Numbered from the stretch's first letter, positions 2,413 through 62,062 are shown. The stretch: 64,000 nt of DNA from Candidatus Woesebacteria bacterium GW2011_GWB1_33_22 (GCA_000989765.1 LBOW01000002.1:70843-134842), one strand, 5' to 3'. The notes: generated by a model from the letters alone, not told the origin. A program made the numbers and translations.

Positions 2413-3391
2413 CCTTTTTGATATATTCTTTAATGCTTTGTCCTTCTCTTGTTTGTAATATATAGGCTCCGCCAGAACTTTTAGCTGAAACTAATACATT
2501 TTCTTCACTTAGGTTAATATAGGAAACAGAATATTCAAGTGGATTGCCAATTTCTTGCAAAATATCATTAACCATTTCTACTGTTAGATTAGTATTTACA
2601 AAAGAAAATGCAGAAGCAAAACTTTTGACATTTGCTTTTTGAAGTATTGCTTTTAATATTTCAAACTGCCGTCTGGAACGATCAAAGTCACTACTCCCAT
2701 GCCTACTTCTGGCGTATTTTAAAGCTTCCTCACCATTCATCTGGTGAGGTCCAACTCCATAACTAATTGATTCATATCTACATGTAAATTGTTTTTCAAG
2801 TTCAAAACCTGAATATTTTTGATGAAATTCTTCTACCTTTTCAGGCGAAAAACCACATAGTTCGTTTTCAAGCCCCTTAACAGGATAAAAATTGTCAGTA
2901 TATGCTTTTTTAACATCTACTGTTATCCCACCTATAGAATTAATCATCTTCATAAACGAAATAAAATCAATAGATATAAAGTTAGATATTGAAAGACCAG
3001 TAACATCAACCACTGCATCTTTAAGTGATGGATCAGCGTTTATCTTATGTCCCGAAAACCAAAGATCTCTGGGAATTGAAATTAGATTTACCTTTTTATC
3101 AGTCACATTAACCGACACAATTATAATAGCATCCATTAAACCTCCACCTGAATGTCCTGCACCCCCATGACCAGTCAGTAAAACATTTAAAAATTTAGCA
3201 TTTTTTGTAGTAACCCTATCTTCCACTATTATTTCAGGTAGGGGATAAGAGTTTGTTTGGATGCTGGCAATTGATGATTGATTATTAGTTACAAACTTTG
3301 TATAGCCATAAGTCCCAAGATACATACCAATTAAAAAAACAGGTAAAACTAAAAGAAATACAAAATTAGGACTTTCTAATAATTTTTTCAT
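2405..3391 (-). CDS. LytR-CpsA-Psr (LCP) family cell-envelope phosphotransferase
   Basis: N-terminal TM plus LCP-domain motifs (SIPRDLW, GGxxxxxxTVxxxxGI, ALxYARSRH). Confidence 0.75.
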
Positions 3392-5598
3392 TTACCCCTC
3401 CCGTGGAACTGTTCATGGATTTCATGAAGTTGTTTATTGGTAACATGTGTATAAATCTGAGTAGTTGAAATGTTTTTATGTCCCAACATTTCTTGAACGC
3501 TTCTTATATCGGCTCCTGCATTAAGTAAATCTGTCGCGTATGAGTTATGACTTACAATTCCATCAGTAAATAAATTTTCAGTATCTAAGACAGTAAAATC
3601 AAAAACATTATATCTAAATGAAGGTAGTTTTTTGATTTTTTTAACCTTTAACCATTTATAATTTTTGGATCTATATAATTGCTTTAATAAGTTGAGTTTT
3701 TGATCTTTATAACCAAAATTTTCAATCTGTCTAATAAATTTAATTAGGGTAGATCTTAACGGAACAATCTTATCTAAATATCGATTTGATTTTATATTTT
3801 CATTCTTTTGCATAGCATATCTAAATCCTATTTTTCCATTCTCTTCTAAATCAATAAATATAGACTTCAGGACCGATTGAGCTGGTATTTTTTCTTCTTC
3901 CCAAATTGAATTATCTAATAATGTTTTACCTTTTAAGGTTGGGATTAATTTAATAAACAATTTCTGATCATTTTTACTAATAATTTGGAGGGTGTAAAAC
4001 AAGTGCCTGAATAATTTACCTTGAGGTAATTTGACCGTTCTGTCTCTCTCCATCAAATGAGCATCTATACCAAGCCTCAAAAGTAACATTTGGATATCTT
4101 TCAAAAAATCCTTAGACGAGGAAAAGATTCTTGGCGCTCCATTAGAATTTCCTTCAGCATCGTAAATTCCAGCTATAAATTCTTTTATTTCATCAATAGT
4201 TGAATTCATTATCAAATAGGGCACACGTCTATCTTTTGAATGTTCATGCAAATTTAAATCCTTCTGCAAAAAATTTACAAATTGATCTGAATAAAAATTC
4301 AATCTAAACGAATTTGTTTTTGGATTGGGTTCAATTCTAGCTTCAGCATTTAATAAATCTCTGATAATTTTTTGATATAACTCAAGAATTGTTTTATTCT
4401 TATCGTGGATAATTACCCCTCTTCGAACTTTACTAATTACACCATCTCCTAAAATATATCCGACTAATCTGGATATCTTTGGATCTATGAATTTTAAACC
4501 TTTTATTTTAACTCTCCGAATTCCTAACACATAATCGTTTACTTTTAAATTTTTGACAAATATTTCGTTAATTCCATTACTTCTTAAGGTAAACAGCCTA
4601 TGGTTATTAGAACAAACTAATTCGTATCCATCAGCCCAAACTGAGTAAAGATCCGATAAATGAGATTCCTTACCAGAAATTTTAGTTTTAGTTATCTTAT
4701 CATTCACCAGATTTAATCCCAAAATGTCTGATTGGTTTTGATAATATAAATTTCGAGCTGAAATAATTTGATCTTTTAAAAATATCCTTGTTTCAGGATG
4801 AACACAGTGGCGGATCCCGTGAGGCGTAATTTCAACAGGTAATTTAATTTTGTGTACATATTTTTTAACCAATCGTTCCACTGATCGGGGAGTGAGGCGC
4901 ATTTTTTCGCCTGCCTGCGCAGGCAGGTCAGGAGTATCAATAAACTTTCCTTTATGTCGTATAAACAAAGGTTTAAAATGATCTTTTCTTTCATTTAAAT
5001 ATTTTTTTAAGTAATCAGCAGAACGAGAAGAAAGAAAAACAACTCTTGCTCTTCCTCCCTTACCAGTAATTCCAAATTCACGTCTTTCAAAATCTATTTT
5101 TTCAATATTAAGGTTTGTTAGTTCAGATACACGTAAACCTGTTGAAAATAAAACTTCCAAAATTGCTTTGTCTCTAATCCCTTGAATGTCTGACATTGTT
5201 GGAGCATTAAGAAGTCTATCTACTTGTTCACCATTTAAAAATTTAACTTGTCTGTCTGGAATTTTAGGTAGTTCAATTTTATCAGGTGCCATAACTTGAT
5301 AGTCATTCCTTATTAGCCATTTTAAAAAGGATCGGAGAGCAATAGCGTGATATCCTTGAGTCTTCTTTCCCAAACCAAGTTTAGCGAGGTATGCCCTAAA
5401 GTCATGAATCGCGTCCTGTTTTATGTCTTCTAATTTAGCATTTGCCTTTTTAGCATTTAACCAGATTGATAATCTGGTTAGGTAATGTTTGTAATTTCTA
5501 ATTGTAAGAGGGGAGCAACCTTTTTCGACAGATAAATAATCCAAAAACTCATCTATTTTTTTTGCTATCTCTGTTATTTTTCCTTGGGCATCTAACAT
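3388..5598 (-). CDS. XerC/XerD-like tyrosine recombinase interrupted by a ~421 aa intein
   Basis: N-terminal SAM-like domain; catalytic Arg (LRVSEL), HGIRH, and a C-extein [34 protein letters not shown] carrying the catalytic Tyr. A Cys...HN|S intein with two LAGLIDADG motifs sits between RH and S. Confidence 0.8.
3544..4806 (-). mobile_element. intein with LAGLIDADG homing-endonuclease domain inside the tyrosine recombinase
   Basis: Begins Cys (after HGIRH) and ends His-Asn followed by Ser+1. Motifs [12 protein letters not shown] and [12 protein letters not shown]. Confidence 0.75.
4910..4927. repeat. palindromic mini-element CCTGCCTGCGCAGGCAGG (family B) inside the recombinase gene
   Basis: Perfect 18-nt palindrome; encodes PAQAGE in-frame. 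Confidence 0.8.
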
Positions 5599-5648: not shown

Positions 5649-6227
5649 CTATATTGCAAGGTCAGACCTTGCAATATCATAATCTTGATGTAGTCCAAAT
5701 AGCTTGAACCATAAATCCATATCTGGAAATTCTATAACCCTGTCGTTACCTTTAAATTTACCCATCTCTAAGGCTCTAGGGAAAATCATTAAGTTAGCAT
5801 CGGACTGTTTGAGTACTTCTGTCGCGGATGAGATGGAATCATCAAAATGTATCATTGAACAATGCTGGCATGCTATATGCCCCTTAAAGACATCGCCATT
5901 CATGTATGTACTAGAACGAATAAAGATGTTTTTTGTATCTATCCATGGATAATTACTATTTAGCCACTTTAAAGTAACATCGGCAAGTTCGGGTACTCTA
6001 GTTGTAACTACCAATTGACTAACTCCATGATCAAAAGCCAATTTTGAATAAGTTTGTATCGGTAAGTTTGGTTTGGCTCGCATAAGCACATCCACATCTG
6101 CCCAGACTTCAGCTTCTGTTTTTGAAGCCTCTTCAAAATTTGCTCCTTTTGCTTTTGCCCAATGAGCCAGTGCAAGCCACTGATCGATTCGTCTATCTTG
6201 AAAATCAAAACCATTCGAAAAGATCAC
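5649..6227 (-). CDS. hypothetical protein (192 aa)
   Basis: ORF. The C-terminus (IARSDLAI) is encoded by a palindromic mini-element. Confidence 0.4.
   Translation of the reverse strand: MIFSNGFDFQDRRIDQWLALAHWAKAKGANFEEASKTEAEVWADVDVLMRAKPNLPIQTYSKLAFDHGVSQLVVTTRVPELADVTLKWLNSNYPWIDTKNIFIRSSTYMNGDVFKGHIACQHCSMIHFDDSISSATEVLKQSDANLMIFPRALEMGKFKGNDRVIEFPDMDLWFKLFGLHQDYDIARSDLAI
5653..5675. repeat. palindromic mini-element ATTGCAAGGTCAGACCTTGCAAT (family A)
   Basis: Perfect palindrome forming the 3' end of the 5649..6227 coding sequence. Identical copies at 21324 and 61431. Confidence 0.8.
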
Positions 6228-20843: not shown

Positions 20844-20861
20844 CAAAGAAATGGTGTATCA

Positions 20862-22019
20862 ATGAATCAATTCATTGATACAGAAATGAAGGTGAAAAAC
20901 ATAAATACTACTGAAATATTAAAAACTTTAGTCTCAATCCCCTCTTGGGTTGATGGTAAAACCAATGAAATAAAGGTTGGCAATTGGATAGTGGATTTTT
21001 TGAAAGAAAATTCTAAATTAAAAGTTACTAAACAAAATATCGGAAACGGCAGATTTAATATTTTGGCTCAAAATTCAAATAAAATTGATGTTTTGGTAAC
21101 TGGACACATGGATACAGTACAACCAAATTCAGGATGGACAAGAAATCCTATTAAACCAGAAGTTGTAGGAAACAAACTTTATGGACTAGGAACAACAGAT
21201 ATGAAATCAGGTATCGCAATAATGCTTTATCTCACAACTTTAGCGAAGTTAAAAAACAACGCTGGATTTTTATTTTATTGCGATGAAGAATATGATTTTT
21301 TGGGAATGAAGTCTTTCATCAAATATTGCAAGGTCAGACCTTGCAATATTAAGCCAAAATTAATAATTTCTCTTGACGGAGAAGGACTCCAAATTGAAAA
21401 TTCCTGCAGAGGCTTGATTGAGTTAAAAATTAAAGCACAAGGAAAGGCGGGTCATGCAGCCAATCCAAAATCAGGAATTAATGCAATCACTGAATCTTTC
21501 AAAGTTATTAATAATCTTAAGAAATGGCTTAAAACTTTTAGATCAAAGGAACTTGGAAACTCGACGTTAAACATTGCTTATATAAACGGAGGTGGTGATC
21601 AAGGTAATATAATTGCCGAAAAGTGTGAATATATTGTAGAAATTCGAGTTGCTAATGAAAATTTAGATGCAACTAAAGTTAAAGATTTTATAATCAAAGA
21701 ATCTGAAAATCTTAGTCTTAAAATTGATGAAGTTAAAGTTAGACATGATTTAGGCAATTGGATTACCAAAAAGGAAGATTTAAAAGAAATTATTAAAATT
21801 TCTGATAATAAAAATGTTAAAAGTGCAAAAAAGTCAGGTTATATTGACATTCAAATGCTTTGGCAAGAATTTAATAAAATTCCAACTTTCTCTTTTGGGG
21901 CTGGAGAAAAAGGTATGTCTCACAGAGCTGATGAATATGTGCAGATATCAAATATTAATAAGGCTCAAAAGTTTTTTGAAAAATTACTAACAAATAAAAT
22001 ATTATCTGTAGTAAAATAA
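20862..22019 (+). CDS. M20-family metallopeptidase (ArgE/DapE-like)
   Basis: HMDTV motif with Asp/Glu/His metal ligands. The start is moved to MNQFID because the longer ORF would overlap tRNA-His. Confidence 0.7.
   Translation: MNQFIDTEMKVKNINTTEILKTLVSIPSWVDGKTNEIKVGNWIVDFLKENSKLKVTKQNIGNGRFNILAQNSNKIDVLVTGHMDTVQPNSGWTRNPIKPEVVGNKLYGLGTTDMKSGIAIMLYLTTLAKLKNNAGFLFYCDEEYDFLGMKSFIKYCKVRPCNIKPKLIISLDGEGLQIENSCRGLIELKIKAQGKAGHAANPKSGINAITESFKVINNLKKWLKTFRSKELGNSTLNIAYINGGGDQGNIIAEKCEYIVEIRVANENLDATKVKDFIIKESENLSLKIDEVKVRHDLGNWITKKEDLKEIIKISDNKNVKSAKKSGYIDIQMLWQEFNKIPTFSFGAGEKGMSHRADEYVQISNINKAQKFFEKLLTNKILSVVK
21324..21348. repeat. 25-nt perfect palindrome TATTGCAAGGTCAGACCTTGCAATA inside the coding sequence
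   Basis: Same element as at 5653..5675 and 61431..61453. Confidence 0.8.
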
Positions 22020-23235: not shown

Positions 23236-24119
23236 AAGCTTACATTATGCTCCTTGGAGTTGCCCTAATTTGGGGAATTGCAGGTCCAGTTATTAAACTA
23301 ACTTTAGTTGGTATTCCCCCACTACTTTTCATTACATATAGATTTGGAATTGCAACATTGGTCGCATTGCCTTTTTTAATACCCAAACTCTATAACTTGA
23401 AAAAGAATTTTTGGTTACTTCTTCTGTATGGTTTTTTAAATTCAACTGCCACCTTAGGATTGTTGTTTTGGGGAACAGATAAAACAACTCTTCTTGATAT
23501 GAGTCTTCTTTCCCTTTTTGGTCCGCTTTTGATGGTTACATTGGGAGCCTTTTTTTTGAAAGAACATGTGACTATAAAGGAAAAAATAGGGATTGCTATC
23601 GCTTTTTTGGGATCCCTTATTATTGCCCTTGAGCCAATTTCACATAATGGCCAAGGAGAACAAAGATTAATTGGAAACCTTTTAATATTTGGTTCTTTAA
23701 TTTGTGGTGCAACTTCTGCACTTTTGGTTAAAAAACTAATGAGGGAAAATATTCCCCCATTTTTTTTAGTTAATTTTTCGTTTGTTGTCGGTTTTCTAAC
23801 CCTTTTGCCTTTTTTATTGCTTTTTGAACCATTTAGCATTTGGCATTTAGCATTTGGCATTGCGCCCAAATACCATTTGGGCGTTTTATATATGGCATTG
23901 ATATCTGGAACACTTGCCTATGCACTTGATAACTTGGCTCTAAAAACAATTGAGCTTTCTGAAGCTGCACTTTTTGCCTACATTCACCCAGCCATCTCTG
24001 CAATCGCAGCTTTAGTTATTTTAGGTGACAAGGTAACTATACAATTAGGACTAGGTGCAGCAGTTGCAATTTTTGGAGTAGCCATTGCCGAGATCAAGAA
24101 AAAAAGATACAATACCTGA
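23214..24119 (+). CDS. EamA/DMT-family transporter
   Basis: Ten TM helices in two EamA repeats. Confidence 0.7.
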
Positions 24120-36084: not shown

Positions 36085-36389
36085 AATATCTCCTCTGCTG
36101 CTGTCATTATATTTTGATTTAAACTTTCCGTCAACTCTGATTTTGCAGGAACATCAACTAACCCTATTTCAATGGTTATCTGTTTGGAAAGAATGCTTAA
36201 AATCGAATCTTCAATCAATTTTTTATTTTTGTTTTCTTCCAACTTGTCTTTATGAAATTTATAATAAACTGCCAATTTTAATTTATCACCATCTAAGTTT
36301 TTAAGTTGAGAGGAGCGAAGTAGGGCCTCAATTGAAGGACTAATTGGTTTAATGTTAGAAAGGATTTTGTTCCAAGTAGTTTCATCCAT
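36078..36389 (-). CDS. DnaX C-terminal domain encoded as a separate ORF
   Basis: Start ATG overlaps the dnaX TAA stop (TAATG). Sequence resembles the tau/gamma C-terminal helical domain. Confidence 0.5.
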   Translation of the reverse strand: MDETTWNKILSNIKPISPSIEALLRSSQLKNLDGDKLKLAVYYKFHKDKLEENKNKKLIEDSILSILSKQITIEIGLVDVPAKSELTESLNQNIMTAAEEIFQ

Positions 36390-37369
36390 TACTCTTCCAG
36401 TTTACACCACTTGGTGAGGGCCACTTCAAGGGGCAGTTCTTCAATTGGAGTAACTTTATTAAATTCTTGTGCCCCAAGTATGTATTCAATTAAGGTTATT
36501 ACCTTACTATCTTCAGTCTGCAAAAGTTTTTGCTGAAGTTTCTCTAGGATATCTTTTGTTATCCTGTCAATTCCATTACCCTCTTTAATCGCATCCTCTA
36601 TTTTAGAAATAACATCTTTACTATTTTTTTCAAATAAACTTTTTATTAATTCATCTACATTGAAACTTCCTACATTTTTCAAAAAACCGCTATCTTTTGC
36701 ATAAAGTTCCAATAATTTAACAGCATCTCTAAACGAACCTTCTGATAATTTAATAATCTGATCTAGTTCTTCGTTCTTAATTAACATAACCGACTTCGTA
36801 ATAAACTTTTCTTTTTTAATTATTCGTTTCAGTGATCTTTTTGTTTCTTCAGTGGTTGCTTTGGTAAATTGAATTAAAGTAGTTCTACTTTTAATAGTAT
36901 CAATCAATTTTTCTGGGTTGGTTGTAGCTAAAATAAAATAAACATGATCTGGAGGTTCCTCTAAAGTTTTGAGAAGTGCATTACTAGCCTCAGTTGTTAA
37001 CATGTGAGCCTCATCAATAATATATATTTTTGCTTTGGCTTTTACTGGTGCAAGCCTAATTGTATCTCTTAAAACTCGTATGTCGTCAATTCCTCGATTA
37101 CTAGCAGCATCCATTTCTATTACATCGATGTTTGACCCCTTTGTAATAGATATACATTGTTCGCATTTGTTACATATTTTTTTTGATTCACAGTTTATTA
37201 CTTTGGCTAAAATTCTAGCAGCTGAAGTTTTACCAGTTCCTTTGGGTCCTGCAAATAAAAATGCATGAGGAATATTACCTGATTTGACAATGCTAGTTAA
37301 AGATTCTCTGACAGACTGCATATCAAGTTCTTCAATAGTCTGTGGTCTATATTTTAAGTAAAATGTCAT
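36389..37369 (-). CDS. dnaX: DNA polymerase III subunit gamma/tau, AAA+ core (326 aa)
   Basis: Walker A GPKGTGKTS, a zinc module (CxxC...C..C) and sensor motifs. Confidence 0.85.
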   Translation of the reverse strand: MTFYLKYRPQTIEELDMQSVRESLTSIVKSGNIPHAFLFAGPKGTGKTSAARILAKVINCESKKICNKCEQCISITKGSNIDVIEMDAASNRGIDDIRVLRDTIRLAPVKAKAKIYIIDEAHMLTTEASNALLKTLEEPPDHVYFILATTNPEKLIDTIKSRTTLIQFTKATTEETKRSLKRIIKKEKFITKSVMLIKNEELDQIIKLSEGSFRDAVKLLELYAKDSGFLKNVGSFNVDELIKSLFEKNSKDVISKIEDAIKEGNGIDRITKDILEKLQQKLLQTEDSKVITLIEYILGAQEFNKVTPIEELPLEVALTKWCKLEE

Positions 37370-38500: not shown

Positions 38501-39712
38501 TTATTTTATTTTTTTAATAACTTCCTCGAAATCTAGAAGTTCTGTTTTGTCTGAAGTGCGTTCTTTGTATTCAATTTCACCTGCCTGCGCAGACAGGTCT
38601 CCAGTTTTATCAGACACAACAAGTCTTACTGGAATACCGATTAAATCAGCATCATTAAACTTTTGCCCCGCAGGAACGTCTCTGTCATCAAACAAAACAT
38701 CAATTCCAGCGTTTTTAAGTTTTTCATAAATATCTTCACCCTTACCACTTAACCCAATCAAATGAACCTGAAAAGGACTAATCTCTTTGTTCCAAATTAT
38801 ACCTTTGTTATCATGACTCACCTCTACCCAAGTACCCATAACCCTGGTTGGTCCAATTCCATAACTTCCAAACCAGATTGGTTTTTTCTTCCCGTCTTCA
38901 TCAGTAAAATAAGCTCTCATTCTCTCTGCATACCAAGTTCCTAATGGAAAAATATTCCCCACCTCAATTGCTTTTGAACTTTTGTAATCTTTTTTATCCC
39001 CTTTCAACACTTCTTCATTAATTGCTTCTGGATCACCATCTCTCCAATAAATTGTATCTTCTCCAGCATCCGAAAGAACTTGAAACTCATGGGTAAACTT
39101 GTCAGTAAATACACCACCAGAAGCTTTGGTCACTTTAAAATTAAATCCTAATCTTCTAAAAATTTTCGAATATGCATCTTTTACTTTTTCGTAGTACTCC
39201 ATCAAGTTTTCTTCAGTTGTATGAGCTGAATATAAATCTTTCATCATAAATTCACGTCCACGTAATATCCCAGATTTTGCGCGTAGTTCATTTCTAAACT
39301 TAGTCGAAAAATGATAGACGGAAACAGGTAAATCTTTATAACTAGTTATGTTTTTACGAAGAAGATCCATCACAATTTCCTCATGTGTAAATGAAAGTGC
39401 ATATTCCTTCTGCCTTGGATCCGAAAGTTTATACATAATATCATTGGCCTTATCCCACCTACCAGTTTCATTCCAAATTTCTTTTGGATGCAAAAGTGGC
39501 ATTAACATTTCCTGTGCCCCTATAGCATTCATTTCTTCCCTAATTATCTGATTAATTTTTGTAACAACTTTCCAGCCCATAGGCAATAGGGTCCAGCTCC
39601 CAGCCATTAATTGATCCATAAAACCCGCCCGGACCAAAAGTTTATGATTTATTGATTCAGCGTCTTTAGGCGCTTCTTTTCTTGTTTTAGGAAATAGTGA
39701 TGATTGCTTCAT
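38501..39712 (-). CDS. proS: prolyl-tRNA synthetase, short archaeal/eukaryote-like class II form
   Basis: Class II motifs and an anticodon-binding domain. Confidence 0.85.
   Translation of the reverse strand: MKQSSLFPKTRKEAPKDAESINHKLLVRAGFMDQLMAGSWTLLPMGWKVVTKINQIIREEMNAIGAQEMLMPLLHPKEIWNETGRWDKANDIMYKLSDPRQKEYALSFTHEEIVMDLLRKNITSYKDLPVSVYHFSTKFRNELRAKSGILRGREFMMKDLYSAHTTEENLMEYYEKVKDAYSKIFRRLGFNFKVTKASGGVFTDKFTHEFQVLSDAGEDTIYWRDGDPEAINEEVLKGDKKDYKSSKAIEVGNIFPLGTWYAERMRAYFTDEDGKKKPIWFGSYGIGPTRVMGTWVEVSHDNKGIIWNKEISPFQVHLIGLSGKGEDIYEKLKNAGIDVLFDDRDVPAGQKFNDADLIGIPVRLVVSDKTGDLSAQAGEIEYKERTSDKTELLDFEEVIKKIK
38580..38597. repeat. family B mini-element variant (CCTGCCTGCGCAGACAGG) inside proS
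   Basis: Encodes SAQAGE in-frame. Confidence 0.75.
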
Positions 39713-42787: not shown

Positions 42788-43309
42788 TTAGAGTTTAACA
42801 AGTGCTTGTTTGTTTATTTTAATATTTTCCAGTGCAGACTTCCCCGCAGCATGAGCCAAGTAAATTGCAGTTTTAGCATCAGAAATTGCATTTTTATTCC
42901 CAATTTTACTAATTCTATATGCCAATTTTTCTAAACTTTGTGAGATCTTTCTAACTTCCATTGGAACCTCAATTGCATATTTTAGAGTTTTAGTTATTTC
43001 TTGTTTTCTCTTTTTATCTGTAGACGGTAGTCTATAAGCTATAAGCACCTTATCATACGCTTTCTTATCTTCCTCTGCCAATTTGGTTAGTTTCTCTTTT
43101 AATTCGACAACATTTTTATGGATCCTAATAATGTCTTTTTTATTTTTTTCATATTTTTCTTTACCCAAAGTTAAATTACAAACCATTTCAACTAAAGATG
43201 CCGCAAAAGCTCCTGAAAGTGCAGCCACAACTCCACCTCCAGGTGTTGGATTTTTACTCCCCAACTCTTTTTGAAATTGTTTTAAGGTTTTGGAATTGAT
43301 TACTCCCAT
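42788..43309 (-). CDS. formiminotetrahydrofolate cyclodeaminase (FTCD C-terminal domain) as a stand-alone ORF
   Basis: PTPGGGVVAALSGAFAASL motif. Confidence 0.75.
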   Translation of the reverse strand: MGVINSKTLKQFQKELGSKNPTPGGGVVAALSGAFAASLVEMVCNLTLGKEKYEKNKKDIIRIHKNVVELKEKLTKLAEEDKKAYDKVLIAYRLPSTDKKRKQEITKTLKYAIEVPMEVRKISQSLEKLAYRISKIGNKNAISDAKTAIYLAHAAGKSALENIKINKQALVKL

Positions 43310-44187
43310 AGTCTCTTTTCTAATACTTGATCACCTTTAAAGGTTGAACCTTTAAAGGTTGTTCGAATAGCTTTTACAAGCGCTTCAAGCGGAATCATAC
43401 CATAAATTTCTGAAGATTTGATCCCAACTCCTAAGTTTTTAGCTTCTTTTTCTATCTCTCTGTATGCTTTATCAAAGTTTGTTATTTCAAAATCAACCAA
43501 ATTCATAGAAACTTGAGCCATCCCATCAACTTCAAAACCTAATGCTTTAACAGCTTTAAGTCCCCCATCTTTTTCTCTTATCTTTTTTGCAATTTCTTTT
43601 GCAATATTAACATCATTCGTTTCCAAATTAACATTATAGGCAACCAAATATTTCCTGGCCCCAATTACAACCGCTCCCGCAGTTGGATGTGGTTTATCTG
43701 GTCCATAATCAGGCTTACGCATAACTTTTTTAATCCCTTCATATTCTCCAACCCTGACATCTGCCAAGTTTCTATATTCCTCTTTTTTAGCTGAAGCTTC
43801 ATACATAAAAACTGGAATTTTAAGTTCGTCTGCAACTTTTTTGGCTAGTTTATTTGAAAGTTTTACACATTCTTCCATCGAAACGCCTGAGACAGGAACA
43901 AAGGGAACGACGTCAACGGCTCCAATTCTTGGATGCTCGCCAACATGGGAATTCATGTCTATTAACTTTGAAGCTACTTTAATTGATTCAAAAACAGAAT
44001 TCAAAACATCCTCAGGAGAACCTACTATAGTAAATAGCATTCTATTATGTGAAGCATTGTACTCAAGTTCAAACACCTTAACTGGTTTACCCTGAGCTTG
44101 CCGAAGGGAAGCATCAAAAATCGCATTTATAATTTTTTTATTTTTGCCTTCACTAAAATTCGGCACACACTCAACAATCTTTTGCAT
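43300..44187 (-). CDS. ftcD: glutamate formimidoyltransferase (FTCD N-terminal domain)
   Basis: IVECVPNFSEGKN start; contains the inserted RQAQGKP mini-element. Confidence 0.8.
   Translation of the reverse strand: MQKIVECVPNFSEGKNKKIINAIFDASLRQAQGKPVKVFELEYNASHNRMLFTIVGSPEDVLNSVFESIKVASKLIDMNSHVGEHPRIGAVDVVPFVPVSGVSMEECVKLSNKLAKKVADELKIPVFMYEASAKKEEYRNLADVRVGEYEGIKKVMRKPDYGPDKPHPTAGAVVIGARKYLVAYNVNLETNDVNIAKEIAKKIREKDGGLKAVKALGFEVDGMAQVSMNLVDFEITNFDKAYREIEKEAKNLGVGIKSSEIYGMIPLEALVKAIRTTFKGSTFKGDQVLEKRLWE
44089..44112. repeat. family C mini-element (ACCCTGAGCTTGCCGAAGGGAAGC) inside ftcD
   Basis: Encodes LRQAQGKP in-frame. Confidence 0.75.
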
Positions 44188-50337: not shown

Positions 50338-51225
50338 TCAAGACAAACGCTCAAGCATCTTTATGGTGTCTATTTCTAATTTAGAAACTGCACACCACTT
50401 TTTACCAAGATCTTTAATTGATGCGCCAAAATGATAAATTGATTTGTTATCGGTAATTAGAAAACGATCGTGGAAAAAATTCAATTTCTTAATTACTATT
50501 GATGGATATTGAGAATTATATTTTTTAAGATCTAGCAACAGATTGGAATTAACATCTTTAGAATAAATTGTAACAGTCACCTTAGTTTTACGCTTACTCA
50601 AAAGCATGAGAACTGTTTCGTCAACAAAATTATCAATCAAAATAATTTCTTGTTTAGCAGACTTAATAAGTTTTGAGACAAATACATATGCATCAAAAGT
50701 TTGGCCGTCAAAAAATAGATTTTGCTTAGGAGTATCTTTGTTGCTAGCTAAAGCATCAAAGACTTGATTAAATTTTTTATCAGTTTCATTTTTATCAGAA
50801 ATTTGCTTTTGCTCGATGTTATCAATTCTGGCAAAAAGTTGTGAGTTAACTTGAATTAATTTACGCATAGAAACAAATTCAGACATAATCTGAATACTAA
50901 TATGAATAGCGATATCACTATTAAGAACGCCTGAAAGCATAGCGACACCCTGCTCAGTAAATGCGAATGGTAATTTACGACGACCTCCGTGTTTTTTTGA
51001 TATCGCAAATTGCGATATCAAGTTTGAAGTCACAATTTGTGACTTCAAATTATCATATTCAATATTAGTAATTTGAAAACAAAATTCTTGAGGAAATCTA
51101 GATTTATTTCTTTTAACTTGTTCGTTTAATCTCATTGTACTAGTGCCATACAATGAGGCCAAATCTTCATCTAGCATAACTTGAACCCCACGAACTAAAT
51201 AAATATGAGAGCGGATATCAAGCAT
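50338..51225 (-). CDS. ORF6N-domain protein (phage antirepressor/RhuM-like architecture)
   Basis: N-terminal IYLVRGVQVMLDEDLASLYG...RNKSRFPQEF. Confidence 0.7.
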   Translation of the reverse strand: MLDIRSHIYLVRGVQVMLDEDLASLYGTSTMRLNEQVKRNKSRFPQEFCFQITNIEYDNLKSQIVTSNLISQFAISKKHGGRRKLPFAFTEQGVAMLSGVLNSDIAIHISIQIMSEFVSMRKLIQVNSQLFARIDNIEQKQISDKNETDKKFNQVFDALASNKDTPKQNLFFDGQTFDAYVFVSKLIKSAKQEIILIDNFVDETVLMLLSKRKTKVTVTIYSKDVNSNLLLDLKKYNSQYPSIVIKKLNFFHDRFLITDNKSIYHFGASIKDLGKKWCAVSKLEIDTIKMLERLS

Positions 51226-56732: not shown

Positions 56733-57566
56733 ATGCGACTGATTTTTTTTGGTACACCTGATTATGTTTTACCAGTTTTAGATATTTTGAATAAGTATCA
56801 CGAGGTTGTTGCGGTAGTTACACAACCCCCAAAACCTGTAGGCAGAGAGAAAATTATCGAATATTCTTCCGTTGATAAATGGGCTTTCAAGAAAAAAATT
56901 GATAGGTTTTTTGATTTTACCGATTTACCAGAAGCTGACCTTGGCATCTGTGCAGCTTTTGGAATGATAATTCCAAAAGAAATTTTAAACCATTTCAAAT
57001 TTGGAATTTTAAATATTCACCCATCAATCTTACCTAAATATAGAGGTGCATCCCCAATTCAGTCAGCAATTTCCAATCTTGATACAGAGACTGGTGTCAC
57101 AATTATTAAAATGGATGAAAAAATGGACCATGGACCGATTGTATCTTCATTCAAATGTGATATTTTACCTACTGACACTTTTGAAACCTTAAGAATTCGA
57201 TTATTTGAACAAGCCTCTGAATTTCTAATTAACCTAATTCCTAATTATTCTAAAAATAAAATTAACTTGAAACCGCAGGATCATGACAAAGCGACTTTTT
57301 GCAAAATTGTGAGTAAACAAGATGGATTTGTCAATTTAGAAAAAGACAATCCACAAGTAATTGAGGCAAAACTAAGAGCTTATTTCCCTTGGCCAGGGGT
57401 GTGGACCCTTCTTCGCCAAGACTCATCAGGGCAAGCTAAACGGTTAAAAATTCTAAAATGTCATTTAGAAAACAATGAATTAGTTTTAGATGAAGTTCAA
57501 CTTGAGGGAAAAAATCCTGTATCTTGGAAACAATTCAAATCTGCCTATCCAGAATCTAGATTCTAG
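56733..57566 (+). CDS. fmt: methionyl-tRNA formyltransferase
   Basis: MRLIFFGTPDY and the formyltransferase motif NIHPSILPKYRG. Confidence 0.9.
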   Translation: MRLIFFGTPDYVLPVLDILNKYHEVVAVVTQPPKPVGREKIIEYSSVDKWAFKKKIDRFFDFTDLPEADLGICAAFGMIIPKEILNHFKFGILNIHPSILPKYRGASPIQSAISNLDTETGVTIIKMDEKMDHGPIVSSFKCDILPTDTFETLRIRLFEQASEFLINLIPNYSKNKINLKPQDHDKATFCKIVSKQDGFVNLEKDNPQVIEAKLRAYFPWPGVWTLLRQDSSGQAKRLKILKCHLENNELVLDEVQLEGKNPVSWKQFKSAYPESRF

Positions 57567-60081: not shown

Positions 60082-61113
60082 ATGGCACAAGTATATTTTA
60101 AAATGAAAACTGCACTTTTTGATTATTCTTTACCCAAAAATTTAATTGCCAATTCCCCCATCTCACCTCGAGATCATTCAAAATTAATGGTAATTGATAG
60201 AAAAAATGAGACTATAGCACACAAACACTTTTATGATTTAGTAGATTTATTAGACAAAAACGATGTTTTAGTTTTAAATAACACCAAAGTTTTTCCAGCA
60301 CGTTTTTTTGGTAAAAAAGAAACGGGTGGAAAGTTGGAAATACTTTTAAATAAATCAGTTGATGATTTTACTTGGGAAGCTCTAACAAAACCTGGTATTA
60401 AAGTGGGTGTAAAAGTTTTATTTAGTGGCTTTAGTGCAGAAGTTATAAAAAGAGATACAGAAATTCACTATTTGAAATTTAATTTAAATAAAAACGACTT
60501 ACTTACAAAACTTACTGAAGTTGGAATAACTCCACTACCTCCATATATCAATCCTCAAGAAAATGAAAATATCTTAAGGAAAGAATACCAAACTGTTTAT
60601 GCCAAAAGTGAAGGTTCAGTTGCAGCTCCAACTGCAGGTTTTCACTTTACAAAAGATTTAATTAAAAAGCTTAAAAAGAAAGGGGTTACCTTTGAATATG
60701 TAACACTCCATGTTGGTCTTGGAACCTTTGCTCCTGTTAAAACTACTAATTTAGAAGATCATAAAATGCATTCAGAAGAGTTCACTGTCTCAAAAGAAAC
60801 AATCAAAAGATTAAAACAAGCAAAAGAAAATAACAAAAGAATAATTTCTGTTGGAACCACATCAACTAGAGTTTTGGAAACTTTAGCTCATAATGATTTT
60901 AAAAATACAGGATCAACAAACATTTTTATTTACCCAGGATATAAATTTAAGTTTATTGACGGCCTTATTACCAACTTTCATCTTCCCAAATCAACTCTTC
61001 TTGCATTAGTTTATACTCTTGGCGGAATTAATCTTATGAAAAAAGCATATAAAGAGGCAATTTTAAAAAATTATCGTTTTTACTCTTTTGGAGATAGTTC
61101 AATTATTCTGTGA
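60082..61113 (+). CDS. queA: S-adenosylmethionine:tRNA ribosyltransferase-isomerase
   Basis: N-terminal FDYSLPKNLIA...SPRDHSKLMV and the conserved QueA core. Confidence 0.85.
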   Translation: MAQVYFKMKTALFDYSLPKNLIANSPISPRDHSKLMVIDRKNETIAHKHFYDLVDLLDKNDVLVLNNTKVFPARFFGKKETGGKLEILLNKSVDDFTWEALTKPGIKVGVKVLFSGFSAEVIKRDTEIHYLKFNLNKNDLLTKLTEVGITPLPPYINPQENENILRKEYQTVYAKSEGSVAAPTAGFHFTKDLIKKLKKKGVTFEYVTLHVGLGTFAPVKTTNLEDHKMHSEEFTVSKETIKRLKQAKENNKRIISVGTTSTRVLETLAHNDFKNTGSTNIFIYPGYKFKFIDGLITNFHLPKSTLLALVYTLGGINLMKKAYKEAILKNYRFYSFGDSSIIL

Positions 61114-61969
61114 AGATTTCAGGTTGACCAATGAGAGGTGTATATGTTTTATACTCTTCTCGTTTAACAAGCTCAGGTCCTTCGAATGTTATTTTGACAA
61201 CTAATCCTTTTTTAGTTTCTTCACTCCACATTTGGTCAAAAACAAAATTACCCAAAGAATAATATATTGGTTTACCTTTATACTCTTCATAGTTTTGCAC
61301 CCAATGGGGATGGTGCCCAATAATTACATCTGCCCCATTTTCTATCATTCGTTTTGCTACTCTAGTCTGTAGACTATTAGCTATCGACCTATATTCCTCC
61401 CCCCAATGCACACCCACAATCAATATATCAATTGCAAGGTCAGACCTTGCAATCTGGGCCAAGTCACTGTCTAAACTACTATATCCAAATGTATAATTAA
61501 AACCCAAGAAACCAAACTTTGTGCCGTTTATTTCTTTGATAACTAAGTTATTCTCCCCCACATAGTCAATCCCCATTTCGCTTAAATATGTTTTAGTTTC
61601 TTCCAAACCTTCTTTTCCATAATTACCTGAATGGTTATTGGCAAGAGTTACAACATCAATACCTGCAAAATTTAATCCCTTTGCAATTTCTGGCGTCGTG
61701 CAAAATGTAAACCCCCCCACATGTCTTTTGCAATCCTTAACAATCGGATTTTCTAAATTAACAAAAGTTATATCTGCACTTTTTAATAAATCTGCAGTTT
61801 TCTTAAATGAGTAAAATGGATCATTATTATCTAAGGTAGCACCCATTACAGACCTTCCAAGCATTATATCCCCTGTAAATAAAATTGTAGTTTGAGGTTT
61901 AGATACATGACTAGAAGGAATTAAAAATAAAAAGAAAGCAAGTATAGAAGAAATAAGCTTATCTATCAT
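61103..61969 (-). CDS. CapA/PgsA-family metallophosphatase-like protein
   Basis: GDIMLGR, NLENP and GHHPHW motifs; contains the ARSDLA palindromic mini-element. Confidence 0.75.
   Translation of the reverse strand: MIDKLISSILAFFLFLIPSSHVSKPQTTILFTGDIMLGRSVMGATLDNNDPFYSFKKTADLLKSADITFVNLENPIVKDCKRHVGGFTFCTTPEIAKGLNFAGIDVVTLANNHSGNYGKEGLEETKTYLSEMGIDYVGENNLVIKEINGTKFGFLGFNYTFGYSSLDSDLAQIARSDLAIDILIVGVHWGEEYRSIANSLQTRVAKRMIENGADVIIGHHPHWVQNYEEYKGKPIYYSLGNFVFDQMWSEETKKGLVVKITFEGPELVKREEYKTYTPLIGQPEIFTE
61431..61453. repeat. palindromic mini-element ATTGCAAGGTCAGACCTTGCAAT (family A) inside the CapA-like gene
   Basis: Encodes QIARSDLAID in-frame. Confidence 0.8.
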
Positions 61970-61990: not shown

Positions 61991-62062
61991 GCCTAGATAG
62001 CTCAGTTGGTAGAGCGTGCCCATGGTAAGGGTAAGGTCGCCAGTTCAATCCTGGCTCAGAAT
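61991..62062 (+). tRNA. tRNA-Thr(GGT)-like gene whose 3' acceptor strand does not pair with the 5' strand
   Basis: Canonical D-arm (GCTCAGTTGGTAGAGC), anticodon arm (loop ATGGTAA) and T-arm (GCCAG-TTCAATC-CTGGC). But 5' GCCTAGA is followed at the 3' side by TCAGAAT. Confidence 0.45.

What the first reader, a model, noticed from the sequence alone, without database searches (positions are those of the whole stretch)
5653..5675. Family A perfect palindrome ATTGCAAGGTCAGACCTTGCAAT present three times, always inside coding sequence
Identical 23-25 nt perfect palindromes occur at 5653 (the C-terminus ...DIARSDLAI of a hypothetical protein), 21324 (M20 peptidase, ...CKVRPCNIK...) and 61431 (CapA-like, ...QIARSDLAID...). 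One palindrome is read in both orientations, giving ARSDLA or CKVRPC. Exact nucleotide identity across unrelated genes indicates recent spread of a tiny mobile or copy-pasted element rather than selection on the protein.
Basis: seen in the sequence. Interest (0 to 1): 0.7.

Follow-up and report, generated by a model that had tools for sequence, protein, structure and literature searches.

The report
Transposase-linked hairpin repeat inside genes
The 23-base palindrome is a small hairpin repeat (REP-like) linked to an IS200-type tyrosine transposase that is common in ultra-small Patescibacteria. Copies sit in frame inside ordinary genes, and these three are old copies kept uniform, not recent insertions.

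Summary
ATTGCAAGGTCAGACCTTGCAAT occurs exactly three times in the window (5653, 21325, 61431), where shuffles give none.

The core TTGCAAGGTCNGACCTTGCAA occurs 54 more times in 25 assemblies among 185,579 species genomes. Nearly all are Patescibacteria, and the flanks are unrelated.

In six of those loci the palindrome brackets a gene for an IS200-like Y1 (HUH) transposase, the REP/RAYT layout. Among 80 metagenomic relatives of that transposase, perfect palindromes are six-fold enriched next to the gene. They share the apex RGGYY-N-RRCCY. The window's own genome has such a transposase about 4 kb beyond position 1, but its flanking hairpins are related rather than identical.

"Recent spread" is not supported. 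All three sites hold variant or decayed copies in relatives:
- CapA shows no indel.
- M20 gains only 3 codons.
- The third copy is an extragenic repeat read through after the stop codon was lost.

The arms co-vary: there are no one-mismatch variants and many compensatory pairs. The window's three copies share AAGG/CCTT, while relatives have AGGG/CCCT. This points to concerted maintenance.

I class it as a new variant of a known kind. It has no GTAG/CGTC tag, is fully symmetric, is identical across phylum-level lineages, and is frequently intragenic.

The parts
5651..5677 (.). REP-like palindrome, copy 1. It is a 27-nt perfect palindrome ATATTGCAAGGTC-A-GACCTTGCAATAT, with the 23-mer core at 5653-5675. 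It forms the last 8 codons (IARSDLAI) and overlaps the stop codon of ORF 5649-6227(-).
   Evidence: As ssDNA it folds into a hairpin of -11.2 kcal/mol, z = -8.5. A relative, L134, has its stop codon followed by a variant palindrome TTGCAGGGTTTCACCCTGCAA at the same place.
21322..21350 (.). REP-like palindrome, copy 2. It is a 29-nt perfect palindrome with the core at 21325-21347. It encodes YCKVRPCN in the M20 peptidase.
   Evidence: In orthologs the site holds a compensated copy (L046), decayed copies (L050, L047) or no copy (L049). In the AlphaFold model it lies at a helix C-terminus plus loop, residues 156-163.
61431..61453 (.). REP-like palindrome, copy 3. It is 23 nt long and encodes IARSDLAI in the CapA/PGA_cap gene.
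   Evidence: There is no indel relative to 20 orthologs. Relatives L051-L053 carry decayed AGGG/CCCT-type copies at the same codons. In the model it lies at a helix end plus loop, residues 173-180.
5649..6227 (-). Host gene 1, a conserved hypothetical protein. Its C-terminus is extended by 9 aa (DIARSDLAI) through the palindrome. The window copy is also N-terminally truncated by an 86-nt gap relative to otherwise identical contigs.
20862..22019 (+). Host gene 2, an M20/M25/M40 peptidase.
   Evidence: Pfam Peptidase_M20 and M20_dimer. Orthologs.
61103..61969 (-). Host gene 3, a CapA/PGA_cap family protein.
   Evidence: Pfam PGA_cap, E = 2.1e-60. Orthologs.
43333..43359 (.). A second palindrome family with the same apex, ACCTTTAAAGGTT-G-AACCTTTAAAGGT. 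It lies in frame (TTFKGSTFKG) near the 3' end of the formiminotransferase gene 43300-44187(-).
   Evidence: The same family, CACCTTCCAAGGTC-G-GACCTTTAAAGGTG, occupies the M20 loop in a different clade of orthologs (L141).

Best explanation
The palindrome is a REP-type element. It is the hairpin-forming DNA repeat that goes with a clade of IS200/IS605-superfamily Y1 (HUH) tyrosine transposases (RAYT-like, about 205-230 aa) that is widespread in Patescibacteria.

Proposed mechanism:
1. On single-stranded DNA the 21-29 nt sequence folds into a hairpin with a 10-13 bp stem. The apex, RGGYY-N-RRCCY (here GGTC-N-GACC), is the part conserved across the transposase clade.
2. The transposase is inferred to bind and cut/rejoin such hairpins. 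This would spread copies and re-copy or homogenise existing ones.
3. The 21-nt core is 7 codons long and has no stop codon in any frame, except TGA when the centre base is T in one frame. Copies that land at a helix end, a loop or a protein terminus therefore survive as short peptide patches (LQGxTLQ, CKVxPC, ARSDLA).

In this genome the three copies are old residents of their sites. They are kept perfect and identical by arm-to-arm and copy-to-copy co-variation, not by recent insertion.

Shown:
- the repeat's distribution;
- its position on both sides of the transposase genes;
- the transposase family assignment;
- co-variation of the arms;
- the age of the three sites;
- their structural context.

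Inferred:
- that the transposase mobilises or homogenises the repeat;
- that ssDNA is the substrate;
- that the transposase found 4 kb outside the window is the one acting on this family.
For: Distribution:
- The 20-specified-base core has 57 exact copies with unrelated flanks, 54 of them in 25 assemblies and 3 in the window. About 0.5 chance hits are expected in 596 Gb.
- One assembly has 10 copies.

Link to the transposase:
- In L003, L005, L012, L022, L029 and L036 the palindrome flanks a gene with Pfam Y1_Tnp at 27-47 bits, where the cutoff is 23.
- These genes carry the motifs YHIYNRGV, MPNHFHLL (HUH) and YIHLNP.
- A profile of these proteins aligns the HUH motif and the Tyr helix to ISDra2 TnpA, PDB 2XM3.
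- In 80 metagenomic relatives, perfect palindromes with stems of at least 9 bp occur at 0.94/kb within 150 nt of the gene and 0.15/kb elsewhere.
- 37 of the 80 loci have at least one. They lie at about -40 to -80 upstream and +20 to +50 downstream. The sequences are locus-specific but share the apex.
- The window's genome encodes such a protein about 4.0-4.7 kb beyond window position 1. It is 61% identical to the L005 protein, whose three palindromes are the exact window 23-mer.

Hairpin constraint:
- Among 82 copies and variants there are 0 with one mismatch and 12 with two. Six of the twelve are exact compensatory pairs.
- The M20 ortholog L046 has a perfect compensated palindrome.
- The ssDNA folds have z-scores of -4.7 to -8.5.

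No target-site duplication is present, as in IS200/IS605.

Intragenic tolerance: both modelled patches lie at a helix end plus loop.

Independent hits:
- The same M20 loop is occupied by two different palindrome families in two clades.
- A relative's dnaX carries the palindrome where the window's dnaX does not.
Against: - The transposase next to the window is flanked by related but different hairpins: AATCACAAGGTTGGTCCTTGTG.., ATGTGAGGGTTGAACCCTCACAT and an internal TACAACAAGGTTGATCCTTGTTGTA. The cognate enzyme for this family in this genome is therefore not identified.
- No transposase gene lies in the window.
- The classical REP hallmark, a GTAG or CGTC tag at one end, is absent (PMC3733652).
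- The proteins score only 36 bits against NCBIfam REP_Tyr_transpos, where the cutoff is 80.
- Copy number is modest, 3 per 64 kb and at most 10 exact copies per assembly. Classical REPs number in the hundreds.
- Length changes in coding sequence (0, +3, +4 and +6 codons) do not fit simple insertion of a fixed 21-27 nt unit.
- Mobilisation has not been shown for any member.
Confidence: 0.72

Rival explanations
1. The transposase gene plus its flanking palindromes is an ordinary autonomous IS200/IS605-type insertion sequence. The palindromes would be its left- and right-end hairpins. The dispersed solo palindromes would be leftovers (solo ends or footprints) or minimal non-autonomous derivatives, not a REP population served by a resident, single-copy RAYT.
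For: - The proteins match Pfam Y1_Tnp but fall below the RAYT equivalog cutoff.
- The best PDB hit is an IS transposase, ISDra2 TnpA.
- Upstream and downstream copies often have complementary centre bases. That pattern is expected for inverted ends. It was seen in 6 of 9 informative loci.
- There is no target-site duplication.
Against: - Solo copies outnumber transposase-linked ones. 39 of 45 genome loci have no transposase within the fetched 8 kb.
- The window's copies are single hairpins in three genes, with no trace of a second end or of transposase remnants.
- Their sites are conserved in relatives over 17-28% protein divergence.
- Whether the gene is single-copy or multi-copy per genome was not tested.
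Confidence: 0.12
2. The hairpin is kept mainly for an RNA-level role, such as transcription termination, mRNA stabilisation or processing, or translational control. Its link to the transposase would be secondary.
For: - About 40% of copies look intergenic, although coding density in these genomes is near 90%.
- Some copies sit directly after a stop codon or a tRNA gene (L013 3509, L134).
- Flanks are mildly A-rich on the 5' side and T-rich on the 3' side.
- The asymmetric variants TTGCAAGGTC/GACCCCGCAA keep pairing only as G·T(U) wobbles on one strand.
- The literature reports a similar bias for classical REPs (PMC3733652).
Against: - No Rfam family matches.
- About 60% of copies lie inside ORFs, where a terminator would be harmful.
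- The element is strand-symmetric.
- The same 21-mer is identical across phylum-level lineages, which a generic hairpin function does not require.
- It brackets transposase genes on both sides and also sits inside them.
Confidence: 0.08
3. The palindrome is the operator of a dimeric DNA-binding regulator, or another double-stranded DNA protein-binding site, and is conserved by selection at each site.
For: - It is a perfect two-fold symmetric site with 10-11 bp half-sites and a free centre base.
- In several loci a copy lies 14-80 nt upstream of the transposase start codon, where it could auto-regulate.
Against: - Sites lie in the middle of unrelated coding sequences and at variable genes in each genome.
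- Compensatory arm changes and G·T-wobble variants fit a folded single strand better than a fixed recognition sequence.
- No regulator gene is consistently adjacent.
Confidence: 0.04
4. The palindrome is a DNA uptake sequence for natural transformation, or else a sequencing or assembly artefact such as an adapter or linker palindrome.
For: - Patescibacteria are thought to depend on DNA uptake (general knowledge).
- Palindromic linkers do exist in some library preparations.
Against: - Density is about 1 per 21 kb, where uptake sequences occur at roughly 1 per kb (general knowledge of DUS/USS).
- The copies are in frame in conserved genes.
- They are present in independent assemblies from many studies, including three that are 100% identical over the region.
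- They show evolutionary decay and compensation across orthologs.
- The sequence gave no hit in any library or methods text.
Confidence: 0.01

Closest known systems
REP / RAYT systems ('REPtrons', REPINs) of Proteobacteria (E. coli TnpA-REP, Pseudomonas RAYTs)
   Same: - A short dispersed palindromic repeat that folds into a hairpin.
- A Y1/HUH IS200-like transposase gene bracketed by the repeats.
- Several repeat families per genome.
- No target-site duplication.
- Occasional intragenic copies, which are reported for GTAG and CGTC REPs (PMC3733652).
   Different: - There is no GTAG or CGTC tag, and the element is fully symmetric with only a free centre base.
- Copy number is low.
- The identical 21-mer is shared by phylum-level lineages rather than being species-specific.
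- About 60% of copies lie in ORFs.
- In-frame copies lie inside the transposase ORF at two recurrent positions.
- The proteins are longer (205-230 aa) and fall below the NCBIfam RAYT equivalog cutoff.
IS200/IS605 family insertion sequences (IS608, ISDra2) and their palindrome-associated derivatives (PATEs)
   Same: - A Y1 HUH transposase with the catalytic Tyr on the C-terminal helix.
- Recognition of subterminal hairpins on ssDNA.
- No inverted terminal repeats in the classical sense and no target-site duplication.
- The best structural-sequence match is ISDra2 TnpA.
   Different: - IS ends are imperfect hairpins plus a cleavage tetra- or pentanucleotide.
- Dispersed units are the whole IS or left-end plus right-end pairs, not single perfect 23-nt palindromes.
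- Multi-copy status of the gene was not tested here.
Rickettsia palindromic elements (RPE) and intragenic CGTC/GTAG REPs (Opitutus terrae, R. conorii)
   Same: Palindromic repeats inserted in frame in functional, often conserved genes. The encoded peptide is tolerated in surface regions.
   Different: - Classical RPE-1 elements are 100-150 bp, and these are 21-29 nt.
- RPE/CGTC elements have no dedicated transposase (PMC3733652). Here a transposase clade is bracketed by the repeats.
- Here the arrival often changes protein length by less than the element's length (0 to +6 codons).
DNA uptake sequences (Neisseria DUS, Pasteurellaceae USS)
   Same: A short conserved DNA word found in coding and non-coding DNA. 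It shapes encoded peptides and often occurs as inverted pairs.
   Different: Density is about 20-fold lower. The unit itself is a full palindrome, and it is linked to a transposase gene. This option was considered and rejected.

Membership tests
REP/RAYT (REPtron) systems | A short (about 20-40 nt) palindromic repeat able to form a stable stem-loop | tested here: met
   The palindromes are 23-29 nt and perfect. The ssDNA hairpins have free energies of -9.7 to -12.3 kcal/mol and z-scores of -4.7 to -8.5.
REP/RAYT (REPtron) systems | Repeats flank a gene for a Y1/HUH IS200-like transposase | tested here: met
   This exact palindrome flanks the gene in six genome loci. Related palindromes are six-fold enriched next to 80 metagenomic homologs. 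In the window's own genome the nearby transposase has related, not identical, flanking hairpins.
REP/RAYT (REPtron) systems | A conserved GTAG (or CGTC) tetranucleotide at one end of the repeat | tested here: not met
   The flanks of 57 copies show only a weak T/A preference and no tag, and the element is symmetric. The definition is taken from PMC3733652.
REP/RAYT (REPtron) systems | Many dispersed copies per genome, mostly extragenic | tested here: inconclusive
   There are 3 copies in 64 kb, and 1-10 exact copies per assembly in fragments only. About 60% lie in ORFs. No whole genome could be scanned.
REP/RAYT (REPtron) systems | The transposase belongs to the RAYT equivalog (NCBIfam NF047646) | tested here: not met
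   The score is 36 bits against a cutoff of 80.
REP/RAYT (REPtron) systems | The transposase is single-copy and vertically inherited (domesticated) rather than multi-copy | not tested
   Only fragments of genomes were available.
IS200/IS605 superfamily Y1 transposases | A Y1_Tnp domain with an HUH motif and a catalytic tyrosine | tested here: met
   Pfam PF01797 scores 27-47 bits, above the gathering score of 23. MPNHFHLL and YIHLNP are invariant in alignment A4. They align to the HUH motif and Tyr helix of ISDra2 TnpA 2XM3, E = 0.016.
IS200/IS605 superfamily Y1 transposases | Binds and cleaves hairpin ssDNA and moves the element | not testable with these tools
   This needs biochemistry or genetics.
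MITEs | Terminal inverted repeats around an internal segment (70-300 bp), with target-site duplication | tested here: not met
   The element is 23-29 nt with no internal segment and no direct repeats at the borders.
Rickettsia palindromic elements | An in-frame palindromic insertion of 100-150 bp in coding sequence | tested here: not met
   The element is in frame and palindromic, but it is only 21-29 nt and causes net length changes of 0 to +9 codons.
DNA uptake sequences | About one copy per kb, genome-wide | tested here: not met
   There are 3 copies in 64 kb.

The most novel reading that the evidence does not exclude
Patescibacteria may carry a distinct hairpin/transposase system in which the enzyme does more than scatter hairpins. 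It would also re-write them in place.
- Copies at old sites would be replaced by the lineage's current master sequence, and mismatched arms would be symmetrised.
- New copies would enter coding DNA as templated patches that overwrite about as many bases as they add (0 to +6 codons).
- The in-frame copies at two fixed positions inside the transposase gene would be part of its control.

That would make this a natural, sequence-specific short-patch editor of protein-coding genes, shared horizontally across the radiation.
Probability: 0.15. Interest if true: 0.8.

Novelty: new variant of a known kind. Interest (0 to 1): 0.5.

Why it matters
REP/RAYT systems have been described mainly in Proteobacteria and a few other phyla. 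I found no paper in the held library that links them to the Candidate Phyla Radiation.

This variant raises several points:
- **Spread between lineages.** An untagged, fully symmetric variant with the same 21-mer in Saccharibacteria, Microgenomates and Parcubacteria-type genomes implies either horizontal spread or an unusually conserved enzyme-hairpin pair.
- **Effect on small genomes.** These genomes are about 1 Mb. The element puts 7-9 residue patches into essential, conserved proteins: dnaX, an M20 peptidase, CapA and the transposase itself.
- **Annotation.** Such patches can mislead ortholog alignments and create apparent 'lineage-specific motifs'.
- **A test case.** The ortholog series shows old sites, compensated arms and genome-wide co-variation. 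It gives a concrete case for testing whether RAYT-type enzymes homogenise their hairpins, which is an open point in REP biology.

Tried and rejected
- **Chance.** Rejected: no matches in any of 100 shuffles.
- **Protein-level selection.** Rejected: all three frames are used, and intergenic copies exist.
- **Phage-borne element.** There are no exact matches in 2.9 million viral contigs.
- **Known RNA family.** Rfam finds only tRNAs in the window.
- **Known sequence in the literature.** The 10-mer occurs only in unrelated primer lists. Searches pairing RAYT/REPIN with CPR terms found nothing relevant.
- **Target-site duplication.** None is present at any of the three copies.
- **Simple fixed-length insertion.** Rejected by the ortholog alignments: 0 codons in CapA, +3 and +6 in M20, +4 in dnaX.
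- **Recent insertion.** Rejected, because all three sites are occupied in relatives.
- **Single-sequence PDB search of the transposase.** It gave nothing meaningful. Only the profile reached ISDra2 TnpA, and weakly.
- **Cross-domain and Gammaproteobacteria occurrence.**
  - One 'Gammaproteobacteria' record (L043) is syntenic with this window at 50-86% aa identity, so its label is wrong.
  - The other three 'Gammaproteobacteria' loci and the 'Woesearchaeota' record were not verified, and I do not rely on them.
- **A transposase in the window.** None was found by tblastn.

Full report
**1. The observation**

The 23-mer ATTGCAAGGTCAGACCTTGCAAT occurs exactly at 5653-5675, 21325-21347 and 61431-61453. 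None of 100 dinucleotide-preserving shuffles gave a match, even with 3 mismatches allowed. Perfect symmetry extends to 27 nt at 5651-5677 and 29 nt at 21322-21350.

The window is 33% G+C and gene-dense. The host ORFs are:
- a conserved hypothetical protein at 5649-6227(-), with the palindrome as its last 8 codons;
- an M20 peptidase on the + strand;
- a PGA_cap/CapA protein at 61103-61969(-).

The peptides ARSDLA and CKVRPC come from two different frames of the palindrome. Orientation is irrelevant, because the sequence reads the same on both strands apart from the centre base.

**2. Where else it occurs**

I scanned one genome for each of 185,579 species with TTGCAAGGTCNGACCTTGCAA, which has 20 specified bases and about 0.5 chance hits expected.
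- The scan found 45 stretches in 25 assemblies, holding 54 exact copies.
- The record titles name Saccharibacteria, Woesebacteria, Daviesbacteria, Chisholmbacteria, Moraniibacteriota and unclassified Patescibacteria.
- One record is titled 'Woesearchaeota' and a few 'Gammaproteobacteria'. One of the latter (L043) is syntenic with this window at 50-86% aa identity, so its label is wrong. I did not verify the others.
- Flanks are unrelated between sites, and the centre base takes all four values.
- Viral contigs hold no copy.
- About 35 of the 57 copies lie well inside long ORFs, using all three frames (18 LQGxTLQ, 6 CKVxPC, 11 ARSDLA). About 22 look intergenic. The element is therefore enriched in the small intergenic fraction but is very often coding.

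**3. What it is attached to**

In L003 the palindrome lies at both ends of, and inside, a 219-aa ORF. That ORF matches Pfam Y1_Tnp (IS200-like transposase) at 28.9 bits, above the gathering score of 23. It matches NCBIfam REP-associated tyrosine transposase at only 36 bits, below the cutoff of 80.
- tblastn finds homologs (34-42% identity) in L005, L012, L022, L029 and L036. Each is bracketed by this palindrome.
- The six proteins share YHIYNRGV, MPNHFHLL (the HUH motif) and YIHLNP.
- Their profile aligns the HUH motif and the tyrosine helix to ISDra2 TnpA, PDB 2XM3, at E = 0.016.

I then scanned metagenome contigs with this alignment. At least 556 relatives turned up, and I examined the best 80.
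- Perfect palindromes with stems of at least 9 bp occur at 0.94 per kb within 150 nt of the gene and at 0.15 per kb elsewhere.
- 37 of the 80 loci have at least one.
- The usual geometry is one copy 40-80 nt upstream and one 20-50 nt downstream.
- In many loci in-frame copies also sit inside the ORF, at about +150 nt (the loop before HUH) and about +450 nt (after the Tyr helix).
- The sequences differ between loci but share the apex RGGYY-N-RRCCY, for example ACTGCAAGGTCCAACCTTGCAGT, CCTGCGAGGTCCGACCTCGCAGG and ACTGTACAAGGTTCAACCTTGTACAGT.

This is the REP/RAYT ('REPtron') layout known from other phyla (PMC3733652).

**4. The window's own genome**

The window is 100% identical to ENA contig k141_512447 and to NCBI GCA_001793665.1 contig MGII01000018.1. 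The ortholog name given by NCBI is Candidatus Woesebacteria bacterium GWC2_33_12.

About 4.0-4.7 kb beyond window position 1 lies a 211-aa Y1_Tnp gene scoring 37.2 bits. It sits past gyrA, a malic enzyme gene, an RNase H-like gene and a pyrophosphatase gene.
- It is 61% identical to the L005 protein, whose upstream, internal and downstream palindromes are the exact window 23-mer.
- Its own hairpins are related but not identical:
  - AATCACAAGGTTGGTCCTTGTG..., twice downstream and once upstream;
  - ATGTGAGGGTTGAACCCTCACAT;
  - an internal in-frame TACAACAAGGTTGATCCTTGTTGTA at the usual +150 position.
- The cognate enzyme for the window's family is therefore plausible but not established.
- The window holds no transposase gene.

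**5. The hairpin is constrained as a hairpin**

Among the 82 copies and variants found in all fetched DNA, none differs from the core by exactly one base. Twelve differ by two.
- Six of those twelve are exact compensatory pairs:
  - TTGCGAGGTC/GACCTCGCAA;
  - TTGCAGGGTC/GACCCTGCAA;
  - TTGTAAGGTC/GACCTTACAA.
- A second random change has about a 2% chance of being the exact partner.
- A recurrent asymmetric variant, TTGCAAGGTC/GACCCCGCAA, keeps pairing only as G·T on one strand.
- The palindrome often extends beyond the core with locus-specific sequence. 17 of 57 copies extend by at least 3 bp, where about 2% would by chance.
- As ssDNA the three window copies fold at -9.7 to -12.3 kcal/mol.
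- In transposase loci the centre bases of the upstream and downstream copies are complementary in six cases, the same in three, and never otherwise. The centre base is therefore inherited and marks orientation.

**6. The three window sites are old**

*M20 peptidase.*
- Most orthologs read FIKEYKN(K/R)-IKPK.
- The window's closest relatives carry the element in the same frame. L046 (82% aa identity) has TGC AGG GTC CGA CCC TGC, a perfect palindrome with a compensated pair.
- L050 and L047 have decayed copies with AAGG on the left and CCCT on the right.
- L049 (79% identity) has none.
- The net change is +3 codons: 15 nt are replaced by 24.
- A separate clade has a second palindrome family in the same loop (+6 codons): CACCTTCCAAGGTC-G-GACCTTTAAAGGTG. 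This matches the family seen at window 43333-43359.

*CapA.*
- There is no indel in 20 orthologs.
- Relatives at 71-73% identity carry decayed AGGG/CCCT-type copies at the same codons, for example CAGGGTC-A-GACCCTG in L053.
- Distant orthologs read IKESDPKVD, with the central Ser-Asp conserved.

*Hypothetical gene.*
- Orthologs end at ...LHQDY.
- The 83%-identical relative L134 has its stop codon followed at once by TTGCAGGGTTTCACCCTGCAA.
- The window lineage lost the stop and reads through the palindrome, adding 9 aa.

None of the three is therefore a recent insertion. All three window copies nevertheless share AAGG/CCTT, the flanking A/T and the centre base. The copies at the same sites in relatives are AGGG/CCCT or mixed. 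That pattern points to concerted change within a genome, either re-copying from a master or selection to match one enzyme. I infer this; it is not demonstrated.

A converse polymorphism also exists. The relative L043 carries the palindrome in the zinc-module region of dnaX (CECKDCKVRPCNKCEQC), while the window reads CESK----KICNKCEQC, a difference of 4 codons.

**7. Why coding copies survive**

The core is 7 codons long and is open in every frame, except TGA when the centre base is T in one frame. In AlphaFold models (pLDDT 84.5 and 87.8) both internal patches occupy the C-terminal turn of a helix plus the loop before a beta-strand: M20 residues 156-163 and CapA residues 173-180.

**8. Comparison with known systems**

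The layout and enzyme class match REP/RAYT systems, and intragenic REPs are documented (PMC3733652). The differences are:
- no GTAG or CGTC tag;
- complete two-fold symmetry;
- low copy number;
- identity of the core across phylum-level lineages;
- a high intragenic fraction;
- length changes smaller than the element;
- recurrent in-frame copies inside the transposase gene;
- proteins that fall below the RAYT equivalog cutoff.

I therefore class it as a new variant of a known kind. It works like a REP/RAYT system, but strict membership fails on the tag and on the equivalog score. An ordinary IS200/IS605 element with solo-end leftovers remains the main rival.

**9. Limits**

- No complete genome could be scanned, so copy numbers, transposase copy number and the cognate pairing in this genome are open.
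- ORF calls are stop-to-stop approximations.
- Mobilisation and homogenisation are inferences.

Noticed in passing
window 6212/6213 (inside ORF 5649-6227, minus strand): The window lacks 86 nt that are present in three otherwise 99.96-100% identical public contigs (L136 10080-10165). The gap shifts the frame and cuts off the N-terminal 50 residues of the hypothetical protein: 242 aa in P0241 against 192 aa here.
   Followed up: partly
window 43333-43359: A second perfect palindrome, ACCTTTAAAGGTT-G-AACCTTTAAAGGT, has the same apex type. It lies in frame (TTFKGSTFKG) 11-20 codons before the stop of the formiminotransferase gene. The same family occupies the M20 loop in another clade (L141).
   Followed up: partly
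window 4910-4927 and 38579-38598; L087 1355-1374: A G+C-rich palindrome, CCTGCCTGCGCAGGCAGG, occurs in a 33% G+C genome, with a near copy ACCTGCCTGCGCAGACAGGT. Both lie inside ORFs. A similar CCTGCCTGCCGGCAGGCAGG occurs in a metagenomic transposase locus. This may be yet another hairpin family.
   Followed up: no
window 50997-51021 and 51023-51049: Two different perfect palindromes, 25 and 27 nt long, lie back to back inside the ORF6N-domain gene 50338-51225(-). Neither has the GGTY-N-RACC apex.
   Followed up: no
window 20855-20882; also 5458-5480, 23863-23883, 56956-56979: There are further perfect palindromes with stems of 9-13 bp. The first lies 11 nt after tRNA-His and may be a terminator. 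The window holds about a dozen such palindromes, where well under one is expected.
   Followed up: no
L003, L005, L029, L036, L066, L070, L074, L078, L090, L092, L116, L129, L130 and L139 16114-16138: The transposase genes carry in-frame copies of their own flanking palindrome at two recurrent positions. One is about +150 nt, in the loop before the HUH motif. The other is about +450 nt, after the Tyr helix. Each copy has the locus-specific sequence.
   Followed up: partly
L043 5451-5471 versus window 36389-37369(-): The record titled 'uncultured Gammaproteobacteria bacterium' is syntenic with this Woesebacteria window, so it is mislabelled. Its dnaX carries the palindrome in the Cys-rich zinc module (+4 codons, adding two cysteines). 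The window's dnaX lacks it.
   Followed up: yes
window 3388-5598(-); L138 10780-11697: The tyrosine recombinase next to the first palindrome contains an intein with a LAGLIDADG domain and is 736 aa long. A closely related strain (L138) has the 305-aa intein-free form.
   Followed up: no
L024 5668 and 6445: Two copies lie inside one 1,500-codon ORF and share 18 nt of identical upstream flank (ACGGCACCCTAAAAGCTA). There the palindrome is part of a longer internal repeat of the protein.
   Followed up: no
L001/L004 versus L040 (5438, 5471): The same gene region (MNETISRRLS-LQGQTLQ-PALGK) has one copy in two Saccharimonas assemblies. A third assembly has two copies 33 nt apart. This looks like a tandem duplication of the palindrome plus 12 nt.
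   Followed up: partly
window 61996-62057: Rfam reports a sixth tRNA-like match (43 bits, model positions 6-65) that ARAGORN did not call.
   Followed up: no
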